Source: Eledone cirrhosa
Taxonomy: Eukaryota
Length of the DNA: 64,000 bases
Direction of reading: 5' to 3'
Assembly: GCA_964016885.1 (NCBI GenBank)
Contig: OZ024742.1
Location: forward strand, 330,150,001-330,214,000
Every line of letters starts with the position of its first letter. Position 1 is the stretch's first letter. The notes under the pieces are model-generated. The model had not been told where the DNA came from, searched no databases, and saw only the letters and a program-made list of their open reading frames with translations. The position numbers were made by a program, and so were the translations under genes. Shown here one piece after another: positions 21,347 through 58,095 of this stretch.

Positions 21347-22515
<1,169 letters not shown>

Positions 22516-35609: not shown

Positions 35610-36033
35610 GCAGATGAGTTTTATTGTAGTACAATAAAGCAATGCAAATATCGGATAAGTAGCACTCTACAGTTTGTAAGACTGGAGTATGAATAATAAT
35701 ATATAGGATGAAAAGATGGTTAAAAGAGTTCCATGTATTTTATTATGCGCATTTCAAAAATAAATATCATCATGCAATAACATTTGCGTTTTCGTCAGAT
35801 AAAATAGGGAGACATGATATGAAGGTTAAACCACACTTGTGAATAGTGCAGTTTTAAATCAACATATCAATATGTTGATTTAAAAATGCACTATTCACAA
35901 GTGTGTTTTAACCTTCATATCATGTCTCCCTATTTTATCTGACGAAAACGTAAATGTTATTGCATGATGATATTTGGTTTTTTGAAATGCGCATAATAAA
36001 GTACATGGAACTCTTGTAAGCATCTTTTGATCT

Positions 36034-48979: not shown

Positions 48980-49999
48980 ATATAAGTATGTATACGTACA
49001 TACACATATGTATACAGACGTACAGTAGTATGTATATATATACACATACATGCAAACATATATACATGTACGTATGGATTCACCAAACATTTATTATAAT
49101 GCTCGGTGTTTTTGTAAACAAACATCCCGTATTAAGCCGTAGTGTCTAGCAACCACCGTTGCTCTTCTGTTCAACACTGACAAAGGAACGCTGTACTAGT
49201 TTCAAGCTTGTTAGCTATCGTCAGCAACGTATACCTTCCTGCCAGATAGTTGAACGTCCGAACTTATATACTTTCCTTATGCATATTAACGGCTGAGTAG
49301 CCCAATTTGCATATCGAGTGGGTTAATCGGCTGAGTGCACCGAAAACGATAAACGGAAATAATGAAACGAAATTTCATTTTCCACTCTTAGTATGGCTGT
49401 TACTTAAATATAAGTATGTTTACGTACATACACATATGTATACAGACATACAGTAGTATGTATATATATACACATACATGCACACATATATACATGTACG
49501 TATGGATTCACCAAACATTATATTTAAATAACAGCCGTACTAAGAGTGGGAAATGAAGTTTCGTTTCATTTTTTTCCGTTTATCGTTTTCGGTGCACCCA
49601 GCCGATTAACCCACTCGATATGAACATTGGGCTCCTCAGCCGTTAATATGCATAAGGAAAGTATATACTTTCGGATGTTCAACCATCTGGCAGGAAGGTA
49701 TACGTTACTGACGATAGCTAACAAGCTTTAAACTAGTGTCAGTGTTGAACAAAAGGGCAATGATGGTTGCTAAACACTCTACGGTTTAATTCGGGATGTT
49801 TGTTTACAAACACACCGAGCATTATAATAAATATTTGGTGAATCCATACGTACATGTATATATGTGTGCATGTATGTGTATATATATACATACTACTGTA
49901 CGTCTGTATACATATGTATATGTACGTATACATACTTATATTTAAGTAACAGCCGTACTAAAAGTGGGAAATGAAAACTCGTTTCATTTTTTCCGTTTA
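48980..49999. mobile_element. Retrozyme-like unit of about 428 bp: 1.25 copies minus + 1.1 copies plus
   Basis: 48981 restarts at about 49408. The inverted copy 49520-49999 reads through the same junction. Confidence 0.85.
49188..49230 (-). ncRNA. Minimal type I HHR, GUA site
   Basis: ACGTTG-CTGACGA-tAGCT aaca AGCTt-GAAACTAGTA-CAGCGT, with palindromic ACTAGT stem III. The mirror copy at about 49703-49737 is damaged. Confidence 0.88.
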
Positions 50000-50044
50000 T
50001 ATATATATATATATATACGCACACACAAACATATATTATATATA

Positions 50045-50073
<29 letters not shown>

Positions 50074-50075
<2 letters not shown>

Positions 50076-50554
50076 TGGTAAACGGAATAGAAAATGCTGA
50101 CAAATTGTTCACAGTTGAAAAATGGTTTAATTAGGAATAAAAGAGTATTAGTGATTGTATGGGTTAGTATTCAGTTGTGGTTTTAAGTTTTTAAGTTTTT
50201 ACCGGTTGCGCATTTCTAAATGCTTTTCAAAAATAATTTTGAGATAGAGTGTCCGTGCTGTTTGCTCTGATCTGATTAGTTTTGGGAATTCTACCTGTTT
50301 TTATGTTAAAAAAATGGCTCCAGCGTTATTTTTGTGTTGTAAAAATGCTTGTGGTCAAAACAATTTTGAGTGGTCGGTAGAGGTCATGTGAATGTAAAAA
50401 GTTGATTTTGCGCCAAGACTGTTTTTATGTTAAAATGTTAGAAAAGTGGCTCCAGCAAAGATTATGGTCAAAACAATTTTGATTGGTCGGTAGAGGTCAT
50501 GTGGATAAAAAATTGGTTTTGCGCCAAGATTGAGAAATGACTCTTTCACAACAA

Positions 50555-50610
<56 letters not shown>

Positions 50611-50719
50611 TAGTAGTAGTAGTAAGGTATTCGATGCTCTATGGTGCAATACAAAAAAATATATGTGCATATATATGCATGTATATATGTATATATATAT
50701 ATATATGTATGTAGTGAAA

Positions 50720-50755
<36 letters not shown>

Positions 50756-51167
50756 ATATATGTGTATATAGTGAATATCATTTCACACCTTTTATTGTTA
50801 AGATTGTTGATGTTCTATTAAGAGAACCGATTTTACTGAAAAAATCGAATAATGTACACCATTTTACCAAGGGGGGAAAAAAATACTGGTCCACCCACAC
50901 ACGCACACACACACACACACACATATATACACAGACACATACACACGCGTACATCAACATACAAAGAGACTTATACACACACACACACACACACACGCAC
51001 TTCTCCGTATAAGACAAAAGCTGAAAAATATCTTTTGACCTTCGAATGACTCTGCTGTGTGTATGTACGCACACACACACACACACACACACACACTTAT
51101 CTTAATAGCCATTTGACACACATCGCTGGTGGCTATTGTCGCAGCATCGAATACCTTACTACTACTA

Positions 51168-51223
<56 letters not shown>

Positions 51224-51738
51224 TTGTTGTGAAAGAGTCATTTCTCAATCTTGGCGCAAAACCAATTTTTTATCCACATGACCTCTACCGACCAATCAAA
51301 ATTGTTTTGACCATAATCTTTGCTGGAGCCACTTTTCTAACATTTTAACATAAAAACAGTCTTGGCGCAAAATCAACTTTTTACATTCACATGACCTCTA
51401 CCGACCACTCAAAATTGTTTTGACCACAAGCATTTTTACAACACAAAAATAACGCTGGAGCCATTTTTTTAACATAAAAACAGGTAGAATTCCCAAAACT
51501 AATCAGATCAGAGCAAACAGCACGGACACTCTATCTCAAAATTATTTTTGAAAAGCATTTAGAAATGCGCAACCGGTAAAAACTTAAAAACTTAAAACCA
51601 CAACTGAATACTAACCCATACAATCACTAATACTCTTTTATTCCTAATTAAACCATTTTTCAACTGTGAACAATTTGTCAGCATTTTCTATTCTGTTTAC
51701 CAATATATAATAACTTGTGTGTTACACCTCTATTCTTT

Positions 51739-51743
<5 letters not shown>
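50074..51743. mobile_element. Young fold-back insertion with near-identical arms of about 565 bp in (TA)n
   Basis: About 50074-50637 is inverted to about 51144-51707; the right arm is about 35 bp longer; internal tandem repeat of about 100 bp. Confidence 0.85.
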
Positions 51744-51829
<86 letters not shown>

Positions 51830-51835
51830 ATAACA

Positions 51836-53350
51836 GTGTTGAACACCCCAACGACGACGGGTCACTTGCCCTCCTTGACTTCCGAATCAACATCACGGAA
51901 CAGGGAGGGATCCACTTCAAATTCTACCGAAAGGCAGCCTACAGGGATCTGTTTGTCCACTACAAGTCCGCCCTCACTAACAGTGCCAAAAGAGGATACA
52001 TCACGAACGAGATCGCGCGAATCAAAAACAGATGCTCCGATCCCGCGAGTGGTGTCACTCATACCAAGCGATTACTCGAGGTGCTGGAGACGAAGGTTAC
52101 CCTACCTCGCCCACAGACAGAGTAGCAGACACCAGATAGAAGAGACAGAGAGGCACACAAGGCAAGTGTTTCCTAAAAATACCACACCTGGGCGAGAATA
52201 CCCCCAACGCTATCCGCAAGGCTATACGGAGCGAAGGCCTCGACATCCACCTGGCCCACTCGGGCCCCTCCCTGCGAAGATGCCTCTCCAGGAAACCCGG
52301 GAAATCAACTGACGCGTGCTCCCTCAGAGACTGCCCGATGTGCCATGCGAACTGTTGCCCACGCACATACGTCGTGTATAAGATCGAATATAACAAGTGC
52401 AACCAATACTATATAGGTAGCACAATCCGGCTGCTGCACATCCGGATCATGGAGCACACTAACACCAGGGCCTTGTCTTTCCGGAAACACATAGCCAAAT
52501 GCGGAAACAAATACGGAAGGCCCATTGTCACAATTCTAGCGACAGAAAGAAACGTCGGCACATTACGTATCAAGGAAGCACTTTGGATCAAACGCCTAGG
52601 GCCACAATTAAACAACCGAACCGAGAGAAGCAAAATGAGGTGGTTGGTTTAAGTAAACAAACGATGCAGCAACACACGCACAAACAAACAAGCGAGACAG
52701 CAACACACGCTCAAACATGCACACACACAGTAGCATTCCACCATTCGAACATACTACACTGCCAATACAGAGGAACAAGGCAACAACACACGCACACACA
52801 CTCAAGCGAGACAACAACCCACGCACACACACACACACAGTAACATTCACCAAACAGGCAAAGAAAACTATGCTCTTACAGTTAGCGCCACCCCACTCCC
52901 ACAATAGAAAGAACTATTTCGGCCGCCAACCTCTGCTTGACCGACCCCATTTCACGCGCACGCGCGATCTGCTGAATACCTCAGATATTCAAAACAACGA
53001 ACAGCGGAGGACACGTTTCGGACCTTTCCGGCAGACAACCCACCCCCCGGAAAAAAACCAATTTGATGGATGTCAATCCGAAATATATAGGGACAATTAA
53101 ATCCCACCCAAGGTGACTCTATCTCGTGTTATTATTTTTATTTTTATCCTTTACGCTCTTTCGTACATACTTCTACACGCTACAGTCTTCTACAGGTCAC
53201 GCATCTCAACGTACACCCACTTACATCTCTCTCTCCACCACCGGAACTTGTTACCCGGAGATTTAGCCATCTGCATTGTCGAGGCTTCCAAACGACTTAA
53301 AGAAATTTACCTTATTATTCCACAATGCTTCAAGCAAACTTCAATACTCT

Positions 53351-53960: not shown

Positions 53961-56543
53961 TCAGGTTATAAATTGGGTGTTGAGCTCTAGTCTATTATTG
54001 ATTGGTGGATGTGTTCTATCTATAATGAGTGCTTCCTTGATTCTAAGATTGCCGAGGTTTCTTTCCTTAGTTTCTATCCTAACTGTTATCTTTTTATCAG
54101 TGTTTTTGCATTTAACTAGGTGTTTCTTAAATGAGGAAGCGTTAGTATTGAGGTGTTCTTTTATTCTTATGTGGAGTGGTCTGGTGGTGCTACCTACGTA
54201 GAAGTTGTTGTATTTGTCACACTCTAGTCTGTAAACTACGTAAGCCTGGTGGCATAGGTCTGTGTCGTTGATGGGGCAGTTGGCTAGTCTGCAGCAGTTG
54301 TCATGTCTGGTGGAGCGTCTCTTAGCTAGCCGTCCACGCAAAGAAGGACCCGAATGGGCCAGTTGAATATCCAGACCTTCTCGTCTAATGGCTCTGCGGA
54401 TGGCTGTTGTTGTTTCTTCACTGAAGTGTGGGAGCTTCAGGAAGCAAGTGTTAGTGCCTCGGGTGTGGTGTCCTCTGTTCTTTCTGGCACGGTTTGTGGT
54501 GGATGTCGTGTATCCGTTCAGTTTGAGTACTTCCAGGAAATGTGTGGTGTGTGTGTCTCGGTCTCTGGCGTCGGTGCATTTGTTCTTGATACGTGCCAGT
54601 TCGTTCTTTATGTATCCGAACTTGGCACCGAGTGGGAGGGCCGATCTGAAATGTACGAACAGGTCCCTGCTGGCGGATTTTTTATAGAAGCAGGTGTGGA
54701 TGTTGCCTTCCTCTGTTACCCTGAGTTGGAAGTCCAGCAGGGATAGGGATCCGCGGTCATCGGGGTGTTCTATGCTGAACTTTATACTGGCGTCCATGCT
54801 GGAGAATGTTGTGTATATTTTCTCTGCCTCCTCACGGGATGATGTAAGGATGAGTATGTCATCTACATATCGGGTGAAGAAGGCATGGGAATGGCAGGTG
54901 TTGAGGGCTCGGCATTCTAGCTGGTTCATGTAAGTGATGGCCAGCAGGCCAGAGAGGCTGGATCCCATGGGTAATCCTGTTGTCTGTCTGTATGTGTGGT
55001 GGTGGAAGGTGAAGTACGTGTTGTCTACTGTGAAGGACAAAAGTTGGTGTATGTCCGTCGGGTGGAGGCCGTAGCAGTGGATGTTCTCTGCGACCACGCA
55101 GTCCGTCAATAAATCGACAGCTGGGTGAGCGGGGACTGTAGTGTAGAGGGAGACAACGTCGAGGCTAAAAGCGTATTTATTAAGTTTAAGTTGTTCTGGC
55201 TGGAGTTGGTGTAATCTACGTATAACTTCGTCGAAGCTACTGACATGTCCGGGGAAGGTGGAGAGTAGAGGCTTGAGGACCTGGGAGAGAAGCCAGGAAA
55301 TTTTGTATAGGGGTCCTTCTATGCTAGAGACGATGGGTCTTATATGCGTCTTAGTGCTATTCTTGTGGGTCTTGATGAGGTGGTAGAAAGTGGGCAGTCT
55401 GCTATTTCTAGTGGTGTAGTTGAGTTTAATTTTATTCGGGAGTTGTCTTCTCCTACAGATATCGAACCAAATGGAGTTGGTCTGTTTTTCGATTTGGGCT
55501 GCGGTCATGTCCGGGATCACTGTGTACAGTTCACTGTCGCTTAGGTGTTCGAAGGCTAGGTTATTGTATGTGGCTTGAGAGATGACGCAGAACTCTTTAC
55601 CTTTGTCGGATGGTAAGTAAATAAGTTCCTTATTCCGTAGGTTCTTCAGGGCGAGTTGTTGTGTCCTGGAGAGGTTAGGGGCCATCTTCTTCTGTTTCCG
55701 TAAGATGTTAAATACGGAATGTTTTAGTCTCGAGAGTTTTTCTTCCAGCTCGCGGTTGGCGGGCGGTGGATATAGTGGGCTATCTAGTTGGTATATCGGG
55801 AATCTGGGTGTGGTGGATTCCGTGGTGTTGTTGTCGAGAGTCGATATCCATTTCAGTTGGTAGGCAGTCCGACAGAAATTCGTTTCTATGTCGAGCCATA
55901 GTCTGTCGTCCAGTCTCTGTTTCAATATGAACTTGGGACCCAGGCTGAGGAGGTCTAATTCCTCTCGGGAGAGGGATCCTGTCAAGTCTGTGACGAGGTG
56001 TTTTGCGTCAGGTGTGTTGTTGGTCGGGGTGCCGCTAGGTTCGGTGTTGGTAATGTATTGTTCGCCTCTGTTGGTGTTTGGCGTTGGGATGTTGTTAAGA
56101 CAGTTGGCTGTCCTGAGTTTGAGAAATTTTTGTTTTATGCGTATTTTCTCGTAGTCTCGGCGGTGGTGGTATGACCTGTCTATAGTGGCGGAGATGACCT
56201 TGGACAGAGGTTCTGGGGTTTCAGCGAGTTGTGGTACAAGGCTGGAGATAGTCCGTATGTGATGTTGTAGCGTGCGGTGTAGGTGTTGTATGAGTTTTCT
56301 TAGGCAGAATTTTTGTATGTAACTGAGTGATCGTTTGAGGCCTGGTGAATTGAAGCATGTTGGTAGGTGTAAATTTTTGATGGTTTTGGGAATGATGTTG
56401 TTATTCAGGCATCGTTTTAGTAAATTTATTTGGCAGCCGGCTTTGGCGCGCTTTTCAGATAGCTGGAAGAGTTTCTTTACAGTTGTGAACTGGGCCTGGC
56501 TCAGGCGTAATGAAAGGAGGAGGTTATAGTTCACTTGAAGCAT
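53961..56543 (-). CDS. PLE RT + C-terminal GIY-YIG endonuclease, uninterrupted (about 860 aa from the first ATG); Nematis/Neptune-like
   Basis: LSLGPKF, PSDKG, FYHLIKTHK, IRPIVS, SLDVVSLYT, QTTGLPMGSSLS, RYVDD, LSLLDF, Cys-rich linker, VVYRLEC..FYVGST.R..RIKEH, KEAL..P.IN. The track start at 56657 is a GTG codon. Confidence 0.95.
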   Translation of the reverse strand: MLQVNYNLLLSLRLSQAQFTTVKKLFQLSEKRAKAGCQINLLKRCLNNNIIPKTIKNLHLPTCFNSPGLKRSLSYIQKFCLRKLIQHLHRTLQHHIRTISSLVPQLAETPEPLSKVISATIDRSYHHRRDYEKIRIKQKFLKLRTANCLNNIPTPNTNRGEQYITNTEPSGTPTNNTPDAKHLVTDLTGSLSREELDLLSLGPKFILKQRLDDRLWLDIETNFCRTAYQLKWISTLDNNTTESTTPRFPIYQLDSPLYPPPANRELEEKLSRLKHSVFNILRKQKKMAPNLSRTQQLALKNLRNKELIYLPSDKGKEFCVISQATYNNLAFEHLSDSELYTVIPDMTAAQIEKQTNSIWFDICRRRQLPNKIKLNYTTRNSRLPTFYHLIKTHKNSTKTHIRPIVSSIEGPLYKISWLLSQVLKPLLSTFPGHVSSFDEVIRRLHQLQPEQLKLNKYAFSLDVVSLYTTVPAHPAVDLLTDCVVAENIHCYGLHPTDIHQLLSFTVDNTYFTFHHHTYRQTTGLPMGSSLSGLLAITYMNQLECRALNTCHSHAFFTRYVDDILILTSSREEAEKIYTTFSSMDASIKFSIEHPDDRGSLSLLDFQLRVTEEGNIHTCFYKKSASRDLFVHFRSALPLGAKFGYIKNELARIKNKCTDARDRDTHTTHFLEVLKLNGYTTSTTNRARKNRGHHTRGTNTCFLKLPHFSEETTTAIRRAIRREGLDIQLAHSGPSLRGRLAKRRSTRHDNCCRLANCPINDTDLCHQAYVVYRLECDKYNNFYVGSTTRPLHIRIKEHLNTNASSFKKHLVKCKNTDKKITVRIETKERNLGNLRIKEALIIDRTHPPINNRLELNTQFIT

Positions 56544-58095
56544 TGTGTAATGAGGTATAAACGTTAGAATATGTGTAACAAGGCCAAGACAATGCAGATA
56601 TGGACATAGAAAAAAGAATGCAATAGTGAGAGATATTGATGAGAATTCGTCTTTCACCTTGAATTTATTTAAATGTCCTTAATTTTCGAGATAATATCTC
56701 TTCTTCGGAGGGAAGTAAAAGTCTCAGACCAGCGTCTAAATTTCCAATGAAGCCATGCTGACCGGAAATAGTATAGAGTTCTAACTTTAATATCAAAGAA
56801 TTAAAATTAGGTGGGTAAAGAGTAGTCTCCCTTTAAGAGGGGTTTGTTTATGTTTTTGTTGTGTTTTTTTAAATGTTATATGCGTGCCTGTATATGTGTG
56901 TGGGAGAAAGCATGAAGGTGTAGGTATGTGGGTGTGTGTGTGTGAGTGTGGGAAGATAGGTCTAATCGTAAAAGTGGGGGGTAGGTGTTATCTGGTGTTA
57001 GAACTGGTTTTGTGTGTGTATGTGTGAGAGAGAATAAGTGGAGGTGTGCGCGTGCGTGTGTGTGGGGTGTGTAAAGTGGGGCTAGAGGCCCTATCAGGTT
57101 ATAAATTGGGTGTTGAGCTCTAGTCTATTATTGATTGGTGGATGTACTCAAACTGAACGGATACACGACATCCACCACAAACCGTGCCAGAAAGAACAGA
57201 GGACACCACACCCGAGGCACTAACACTTTCTTCCTGAAGCTCCCACACTTCAGTGAAGAAACAACAACAGCCATCCGCAGAGCCATCTGACGAGAAGGTC
57301 TGGATATTCAACTGGCCCATTCGGGTCCTTCTTTGCGTGGACGGCTAGCTAAGAGACACTCTACCAGACATGACAACTTCTGCAGACTAGCCAACTGCCC
57401 CATCAACGACACAGACCTATGCCACCAGGCTTACGTAGTTTACAGACTAGAGTGTGACAAATGCAACAACTTCTACGTAGGTAGCACCACCAGACCACTC
57501 CACATAAGAATAAAAGAACACCTCAATACTAACGCTTCCTCATTTAAGAAACACCTAGTTAAATGCAAAAACACTGATAAAAACATAACAGTTAGGATAG
57601 AAACTAAGGAAAGAAACCTCGGCAATCTTAGAATCAAGGAAGCACTCATTATAGATAGAACACATCCACCAATCAATAATAGACTAGAGCTCAACACCCA
57701 ATTTATAACCTGATAGGGCCTCTAGCCCCACTTTACACACCCCACACACACGCACGCGCACACCTCCACTTATTCTCTCTCACACATACACACACAAAAC
57801 CAGTTCTAACACCAGATAACACCTACCCCCCACTTTTACGATTAGACCTATCTTCCCACACTCACACACACACACCCACATACCTACACCTTCATGCTTT
57901 CTCCCACACACATATACAGGCACGCATATAACATTAAAAAAAACACAACAAAAACATAAACAAACCCCTCTTAAAGGGAGACTACTCTTTACCCACCTAA
58001 TTTTAATTCTTTGATATTAAAGTTAGAACTCTATACTATTTCCGGTCAGCATGGCTTCATTGGAAATTTAGACGCTGGTCTGAGACTTTTACTTC

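What the first reader, a model, noticed from the sequence alone, without database searches (positions are those of the whole stretch)
48980..49999. 428-bp retrozyme-like unit apparently copied from a circular or concatemeric RNA
Seen: a non-coding unit with one textbook minimal HHR. The minus arm holds 1.25 monomers and the plus arm 1.1 monomers. Both arms cross the same monomer junction but end at different points of the unit (CATACTTATA| and CCGTTTAT|), each continuing into TA repeats. Inference: circular permutation implies a circRNA or multimer template reverse-transcribed in trans by a PLE RT.
Basis: partly seen in the sequence, partly recalled or inferred. Interest (0 to 1): 0.85.

Follow-up and report, generated by a model that had tools for sequence, protein, structure and literature searches.

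The report
Penelope-hitchhiking retrozyme copied from both ends
This is one aged copy of an abundant non-coding jumping repeat that carries a predicted self-cutting RNA motif, and its fixed ends show it was likely pasted in by a Penelope-type retrotransposon enzyme, probably while copying a small circular RNA, a route already proposed for such repeats but not tested here.

Summary
In detail: a 428-bp non-coding unit, minus arm 1.26 and plus arm 1.15 units, head-to-head. Only the minus arm keeps an intact type I hammerhead. The element is one of about 24,000 hammerhead copies in this genome, with three sister families. 3' ends fall at two fixed sites 60 nt apart (71 of 89 arms), the known Penelope-like (PLE) 'tail'. 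Head-to-head insertions carry one of each (54 of 55 assignable pairs, 86 in all). The conclusion partly survives: no ORF is attached, arms read through the cleavage site, and young sister insertions hold up to about 20 identical units sharing one haplotype across both arms (0.4% within, 3.2% between loci). That favours a monomer template copied repeatedly, likely a circle, but local duplication also occurs, no RNA data were available, and the partner PLE was not found. Verdict: new member of the animal non-LTR retrozymes / non-autonomous PLEs. The scan earlier noted similar tandem-plus-inverted PLE-type insertions in other genomes.

The parts
48981..49519 (-). Minus arm: 5'-truncated at unit position 323, crosses the unit junction, one full 428-bp unit, ends at the proximal fixed 3' end
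49184..49236 (-). Intact type I hammerhead (core starts 49224; predicted cleavage after 49194, unit position 220); palindromic 2-bp helix III, likely active only as a dimer
   Evidence: PMC4209133 passages for the dimer rule
49349..49413 (-). Internal copy of the 65-nt tail segment with its conserved hairpin
49518..49519 (.). Head-to-head junction of the two 5'-truncated arms, 2-nt overlap
   Evidence: junction offsets of 86 pairs
49518..49935 (+). Plus arm, one full unit (418 bp)
49702..49740 (+). Broken hammerhead of the plus arm (core substitution and 13-nt deletion over the cleavage site)
49936..50000 (+). 65-nt tail ending at the distal fixed 3' end
49998..50075 (.). TA microsatellite target tract on the right

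Best explanation
This is a copy of a high-copy, non-coding 428-bp tandem element with a hammerhead motif and two fixed 3' ends, likely inserted by a borrowed Penelope-like (Neptune-type) reverse transcriptase/endonuclease that likely copied a monomeric circular RNA from both sides of a cut in a TA repeat. Steps: (1) tandem copies are transcribed (inferred); (2) paired hammerheads cut the RNA to monomers, and the long helix I holds the ends together for ligation into a circle of about 428 nt (predicted; shown for other animal retrozymes); (3) the PLE protein, probably a dimer, cuts both strands of TA-rich DNA and primes at two internal sites 60 nt apart, one per DNA end (two fixed ends and the one-of-each rule are shown; the enzyme is inferred); (4) each cDNA runs through the cleavage site for 0.1 to about 13 units and stops at random (shown); (5) the two cDNAs are joined head-to-head with short overlaps or fillers (shown); (6) some arms later grow by local duplication (shown by higher-order repeats). 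About 0.9 for PLE-driven non-autonomous mobilisation, about 0.5 for the full chain with the circle.
For: Fixed 3' ends: 36 proximal + 35 distal of 89 arms; 22 + 18 of 61 in a position-ordered sample; 35 of 36 and 43 of 45 in sister families F3 and F4. One proximal plus one distal end in 54 of 55 assignable head-to-head pairs (86 pairs, 31 unassigned). Autonomous RT + GIY-YIG elements of this genome also end at two sites into TA, and L096 has the same one-of-each inverted form. PMC11167929: two internal RT start sites make the tail, both strands are cut and extended, dimer predicted. No attached ORF (longest ATG ORF 53 aa). 5' ends avoid no region and do not pile up at the cut (3 of 172 within 8 nt, 6.5 expected), so the template spans the cut. 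Monomer bottleneck: in F4, units differ 0.41% within an arm, 0.40% between arms, 3.2% between loci; in 18 multi-unit regions 130 variants are fixed, 6 partial, none partial in both arms. L228 has 6.9 + 12.9 identical units, L237 11.3 + 11.6. In the query family, rare variants are shared by the two arms at 0.60 vs 0.056 per 100 nt across loci. Hammerhead fold covaries (95.8% of 96 cells paired, 6 of 16 pairs with double changes); 19 of 53 pairs over the unit.
Against: No RNA evidence of expression, cleavage or circle. PMC11167929 found hammerhead cleavage unnecessary for insertion in vitro, with unprocessed RNA the main substrate. In the bioRxiv study 8 of 9 retrozyme dimers did not cleave. Higher-order repeats (5-unit in L178, 3-unit in L237 and contig C602, 2-unit in L233, L250, L148) show that arrays also grow locally, so long arms need not be born long. 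Variant 264C is partial in both arms of L178, and 74C sits in 6 of 7 plus-arm units but no minus-arm unit of L248. Length does not track age (rho -0.07, 44 pairs). No partner PLE found (1 of 48 comparisons at p<0.02). U.U at 10.1-11.1 is atypical.
Confidence: 0.5

Rival explanations
1. Same PLE-driven insertion, but the template is an uncleaved linear read-through transcript of a tandem locus; long arms come from long transcripts and later local duplication. No circle is needed.
For: [quoted passage not shown] Higher-order repeats. Most arms are 1-2 units. Variant 264C partial in both arms of L178. Autonomous PLEs make partial tandems too (PMC2377424 passages). An earlier scan note describes ribozyme-free tandem arrays with PLE-type ends (e1-7881736, unchecked).
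Against: Haplotypes differ 3.2% between loci yet are fixed within insertions and across both arms (121 multi-locus variants fixed, 1 partial, 7 single). A 6-kb transcript with 13 intact hammerheads would have to stay uncut. The hammerhead fold is conserved by covariation across families at about 70% identity.
Confidence: 0.3
2. The template is a hammerhead-cut linear monomer whose ends are clamped by helix I; the RT jumps from the 5' end to the 3' end of the same or another monomer at each lap.
For: Explains haplotype homogeneity without ligation. The query's plus arm has a 13-nt deletion at the cleavage site. Template jumping by R2-type RTs is recalled, not from a call.
Against: Cleavage-site junctions are clean in nearly all copies (the deletion is in 1 of 56 regions), and 5' ends do not pile up at the cut.
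Confidence: 0.12
3. The unit is the pseudo-LTR / tail end of a longer coding PLE, and these are ordinary truncated copies.
For: Ends, tail and inversion are those of coding PLEs; the window neighbour is such a case. An earlier scan note reached this verdict for a look-alike in another genome (e1-7908855). A rare master among 24,000 copies cannot be excluded.
Against: Pure head-to-tail arrays up to about 58 units. 4 of 67 loci have PLE protein hits, from four different families and none joined to the unit; 23 non-inverted 5' flanks share nothing adjacent. Four families align over the unit without ORF remnants.
Confidence: 0.05
4. Satellite DNA spread at DNA level, or a fold-back assembly artefact.
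For: TA-rich surroundings; arrays show local duplication; a 553-nt near-perfect inverted repeat lies next door.
Against: Arms differ by 6% and end at different fixed sites; the same anatomy recurs at dozens of unlinked loci; RNA structure covaries.
Confidence: 0.03

Closest known systems
Animal non-LTR retrozymes (Cervera and de la Pena 2020, PMC7229834; Li, Clavereau and Pollet, bioRxiv 10.64898/2026.07.22.740005)
   Same: Non-coding tandem repeats with one type I hammerhead per unit, low GC, dimers to long multimers, co-occurring with PLEs; proposed circRNA template and PLE mobilisation.
   Different: Unit 428-468 nt, slightly above the 170-400 nt quoted for invertebrates. In the parts I read, those papers do not describe two fixed 3' ends, head-to-head arms or a one-of-each rule. 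Circles are shown there and untested here. Xenopus retrozymes often resemble pLTRs of known PLEs; here no matching PLE was found.
Endonuclease-positive Penelope-like elements, Neptune-type (PMC8557442; PMC11167929; PMC2377424)
   Same: Partial tandems, inverted 5'-truncated copy, tail at one end only, microsatellite targeting, hammerhead in the repeat.
   Different: No ORF; the whole element is the repeat; tail 60-70 nt rather than 30-40 nt (this genome's own PLEs have roughly 40-65 nt); arms can reach 13 units.
Non-autonomous Chlamys elements such as MRC1 (PMC8557442 passages)
   Same: [quoted passage not shown]
   Different: Those generally resemble an autonomous family at the 3' end and mostly lack canonical hammerheads; algal.

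Membership tests
Non-LTR retrozyme | Short non-coding tandem repeat unit | tested here: met
   428-bp unit, longest ATG ORF 53 aa; arrays of 2 to about 58 units
Non-LTR retrozyme | Type I hammerhead in each unit | tested here: met
   Intact in 71 of 106 dispersed and 55 of 63 array windows (sample biased to good matches); covariation. This locus has one intact and one broken copy.
Non-LTR retrozyme | [quoted passage not shown] | tested here: met
   Met by the family, not by this locus itself
Non-LTR retrozyme | Self-cleavage of the transcript | not testable with these tools
   Isolated 47-nt monomer does not fold into the active form (z -0.43); dimer needed by the rule in PMC4209133
Non-LTR retrozyme | Expressed as circular RNA | not testable with these tools
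   No RNA run was available; circular fold is stable but that is a prediction
PLE-type insertion | Fixed 3' ends with optional tail | tested here: met
PLE-type insertion | 5' truncation, partial tandems and inverted copy | tested here: met
   33 head-to-head pairs in 32 of 56 regions; 18 pairs in 16 of 40
PLE-type insertion | AT-rich / TA microsatellite target | tested here: met
   26 of 35 distal ends are followed by ATATAT; no target-site duplication can be read in TA tracts
Autonomous PLE | RT plus GIY-YIG ORF in the element | tested here: not met
Non-autonomous derivative of a named PLE family | Sequence similarity to the 3' end or pLTR of an autonomous family | tested here: inconclusive
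   1 of 48 comparisons at p<0.02 against 8 families; these came from 50 of 150 listed GIY-YIG hits among 10,596 candidates
Minimal PLE hammerhead (min-HHR, PMC4209133) | Short helix I with poor loop 1, long helix II, no helix III | tested here: not met
   6-bp helix I plus extension, 4-bp helix II, 2-bp palindromic helix III: the canonical metazoan type I layout

The most novel reading that the evidence does not exclude
These families are a genomic record of rolling-circle target-primed reverse transcription: one PLE RT dimer binds one ribozyme-made circular RNA at two sites 60-70 nt apart, primes from both ends of a double-strand cut and rolls up to 13 laps per side, laying down a 9-kb satellite seed in a single step. 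This would tie together the PLE tail, PLE inversions, PLE tandems and retrozyme circles in one mechanism.
Probability: 0.35. Interest if true: 0.78.

Novelty: new member of a known kind. Interest (0 to 1): 0.5.

Why it matters
Two open questions meet here: whether retrozyme circular RNAs are really the templates for new genomic copies, and how PLEs make their tandem and inverted insertions (both left open in PMC7229834, PMC8557442 and PMC2377424). This genome holds about 30,000 exact hammerhead cores in related families, some with brand-new insertions. The one-proximal-plus-one-distal rule and the single haplotype across both arms are sharp constraints on any PLE mechanism, and the short ORF-free unit is a ready substrate for the existing in vitro PLE assay. 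The locus itself is an ordinary, aged copy.

Tried and rejected
Random circular permutation of ends: rejected. L1-style twin priming, suggested by the plus arm starting where the minus arm ends: rejected, since both outer ends are fixed and inner ends scatter. Pile-up of 5' ends at the proximal site after a full lap, a hoped-for circle signature: not found (4 of 64 distal arms, 1 of them longer than half a unit, p 0.22). Pile-up at the hammerhead cut: not found (3 of 172). Youngest insertions longest: no correlation; 8 or more units in 4 of 12 young vs 2 of 32 older pairs, but loci were partly chosen for being multi-copy. Partner PLE by sequence: not found. Rfam at gathering thresholds: no hit. 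Public runs: no RNA holder listed; no reads were laid, so expression and RNA ends stay open. Searches used structure strings that I had mis-indexed; only one search counts. An snRNA-type promoter (octamer motif upstream of the hammerhead, as recalled for newt satellite 2) could not be backed by a paper, and the motif is altered in one F4 haplotype. Earlier notes on this genome or sequence: none.

Full report
Observation. The region holds two head-to-head arms of one 428-bp unit. Numbering the unit from window 49413 downwards, the minus arm runs 323 to 428, then 1 to 428, then five more bases (48981-49519, 1.26 units). The plus arm runs 1 to 428 (418 bp) and 1 to 65 (49518-50000, 1.15 units). 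The arms overlap by 2 nt and are 93.7% identical. The minus arm has an intact type I hammerhead with predicted cleavage after unit position 220. The plus-arm copy is broken. Rfam gave no hit, and the isolated 47-nt motif does not fold into the active form, as expected for a motif with a 2-bp palindromic helix III that needs a dimer (PMC4209133, passages).

Copy number and relatives. The genome is 3.0 Gb. Named relatives of one of its PLE proteins are mostly molluscan; I did not identify the organism. The 31-nt core shared by the query family F1 and its young sister F2 matches 24,001 times exactly, control 0. A second pattern gives 5,691 matches, control 3; 96 of the first 100 listed are family F4. 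F2 is 85% identical to F1 over the unique part, F3 and F4 69%, and F3 and F4 are 96% identical to each other. The hammerhead fold holds across them: 95.8% of 96 cells paired, 6 of 16 pairs with changes on both sides, slid controls 30-50% (6 sequences). Over the unique 300 nt, 19 of 53 predicted pairs show a double change, including a long-range helix from the tail start to about position 275 (8 related sequences). The F1 circle folds at -121 kcal/mol against -92 +/- 6 for 30 crude shuffles. Helix I extends well beyond the core in these folds, which would clamp the two ends of a cut monomer (inference).

Ends. In 56 merged F1 regions, 89 arms of 100 nt or more had their 3' end in view: 36 at the proximal site, 35 at the distal site 60 nt further, 18 elsewhere, many of these being alignment breaks in an expanded TA tract or near misses (loci were the best-scoring hits). 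A second sample of 40 regions picked from the first 100 hits in genome order gave 22, 18 and 21 of 61. F3 gave 35 of 36 and F4 43 of 45 at the two sites. 5' ends scatter over the unit, with 3 of 172 within 8 nt of the cut against 6.5 expected. Two fixed ends with an optional tail are the PLE signature: PMC11167929 (main text read) showed two internal RT start sites that match the genomic tail, cutting and extension on both strands, and a predicted dimer. PMC8557442 (passages) describes partial tandems, an inverted 5'-truncated copy, a tail often at one end only, and TA targeting.

One of each. In head-to-head pairs with both outer ends assignable, one is proximal and one distal: 16 of 19 in F1, 9 of 9 in the second F1 sample, 30 of 30 in F3 and F4, and 54 of 55 in the pooled recount (86 pairs, 31 with an unassigned end, two rows being one duplicated locus). 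Junction offsets cluster near zero, from 42-nt overlap to 31-nt filler. The two arms share rare variants at 0.60 per 100 nt (10 of 22 pairs) against 0.056 across loci (69 of 720). I infer one event in which both DNA ends prime on one RNA or on sister RNAs.

Not a coding element. Units form pure arrays, up to about 58 units over 25 kb on contig C4, again ending at the distal site. PLE proteins hit 4 of 67 F1 loci and 7 of 130 sister-family loci; the four F1 cases belong to four families and are not joined to the unit; 23 non-inverted 5' flanks share no adjacent sequence. The genome has autonomous candidates: RT plus GIY-YIG ORFs (Pfam finds both in 4 of 5 tested) with the cysteine linker of Neptune/Nematis elements, variant hammerheads in most, and two 3' ends into TA. 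L096 and the window neighbour at 50069-51742 show the same one-of-each inverted form. None of 8 sampled families resembles the unit beyond chance (1 of 48 comparisons at p<0.02), so the partner is unnamed and Neptune-type is an inference.

Circle or linear template. A cut linear monomer offers only 213 or 273 nt from the start sites, and most arms are longer, so the template spans the cut. In F4 (27 regions, 113 units; 20 stretches were fetched mainly for holding several hits), units differ 0.41% within an arm, 0.40% between arms and 3.2% between loci. In 18 multi-unit regions 130 variants are fixed, 6 partial and 54 single, none partial in both arms. Caveats: the mask hid a 3-unit periodic variant in the minus arm of L237 (visible), and L239 holds two insertions. 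L228 has 6.9 + 12.9 identical units; L237 11.3 + 11.6. In genome order, 8 of 28 F4 insertions hold three or more hammerheads. In F1, L248 has 2.3 + 7.4 units of one haplotype. A monomer bottleneck at each insertion explains this directly. Against it: higher-order repeats show local duplication; one variant is partial in both arms of L178; one is confined to the plus arm of L248; length does not track age; no lap-related stop signature was found; and cleavage was dispensable in PMC11167929. Assembly smoothing of long identical arrays was not checked. No RNA run holds the sequence in the index, so nothing can be said about expression.

Comparison and novelty. PMC7229834 (passages and sections 14 and 17) shows circles for coral, mussel and axolotl retrozymes and proposes target-primed copying of the circle by PLE RTs; its supplement could not be read and may list this family or draw this model. 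The bioRxiv preprint 10.64898/2026.07.22.740005 (parts 1-3 of 5; supplements not seen) links vertebrate retrozymes to PLE pLTRs, favours local amplification for tandems, and found cleavage in 1 of 9 dimers. PMC2377424 (passages) leaves tandem formation unexplained. Seven searches (listings only unless named above) found no description of this family or of the one-of-each count; two of them used octopus or cephalopod as terms, a guess of mine from genome size and makeup. The library lacks most subscription papers and Repbase, so absence is weak. The element works like a PLE passenger and meets the sequence tests for a non-LTR retrozyme; cleavage and circle are untested.

Verdict. Observation confirmed, interpretation partly supported, new member of a known kind, interest 0.5. 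The locus is an ordinary aged copy; the value lies in the family-wide anatomy, which makes the retrozyme-circle and PLE-tandem questions testable.

Noticed in passing
window 50069-51742: Young inverted insertion of the pLTR region of an autonomous Neptune-type family (family D, as in L071): arms 552 of 553 identical, one proximal and one distal end, degenerate hammerhead-like motif near 51547-51583. It sits in the same TA tract as the finding.
   Followed up: partly
window 53964-55772, 57135-57710, 51835-52625: Fragments of RT + GIY-YIG PLE ORFs (94%, 92% and 53-56% identical to the L101 protein).
   Followed up: no
L092:4519-5800 and L061-L110: Autonomous PLE families carry hammerhead variants with UUGA in place of CUGA (families A, E, L109) and U.U closing helix II (families C, E), as in the query unit.
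   Followed up: partly
L112-L114 (G000:C4:375754237-375779382): 25-kb satellite-like array of about 58 F1 units that still ends at the distal PLE-type end.
   Followed up: partly
L228:2617-11869: 9.25-kb head-to-head F4 insertion of about 20 units without a single difference; likely very recent.
   Followed up: yes
window 49301-49308 (minus strand) and homologous places in F2-F4: Octamer-like motif and a TATA-like stretch upstream of the hammerhead, kept across families; possible internal promoter. The parallel to newt satellite 2 is recalled only.
   Followed up: partly
L252:1293-5058; L151/L152 region (G000:C2:362.23 and 362.47 Mb): Whole insertions duplicated with their junctions by segmental duplication.
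   Followed up: no
L097:103 (-), L098:7986 (+): An unrelated canonical-looking hammerhead family with a longer helix II and G-C closure.
   Followed up: no
window 13135 (+), 12265 (-), 35798-35939, 63730, 21755-22233: Other repeated hammerhead-like cores in inverted or tandem pairs, probably further PLE ends.
   Followed up: no
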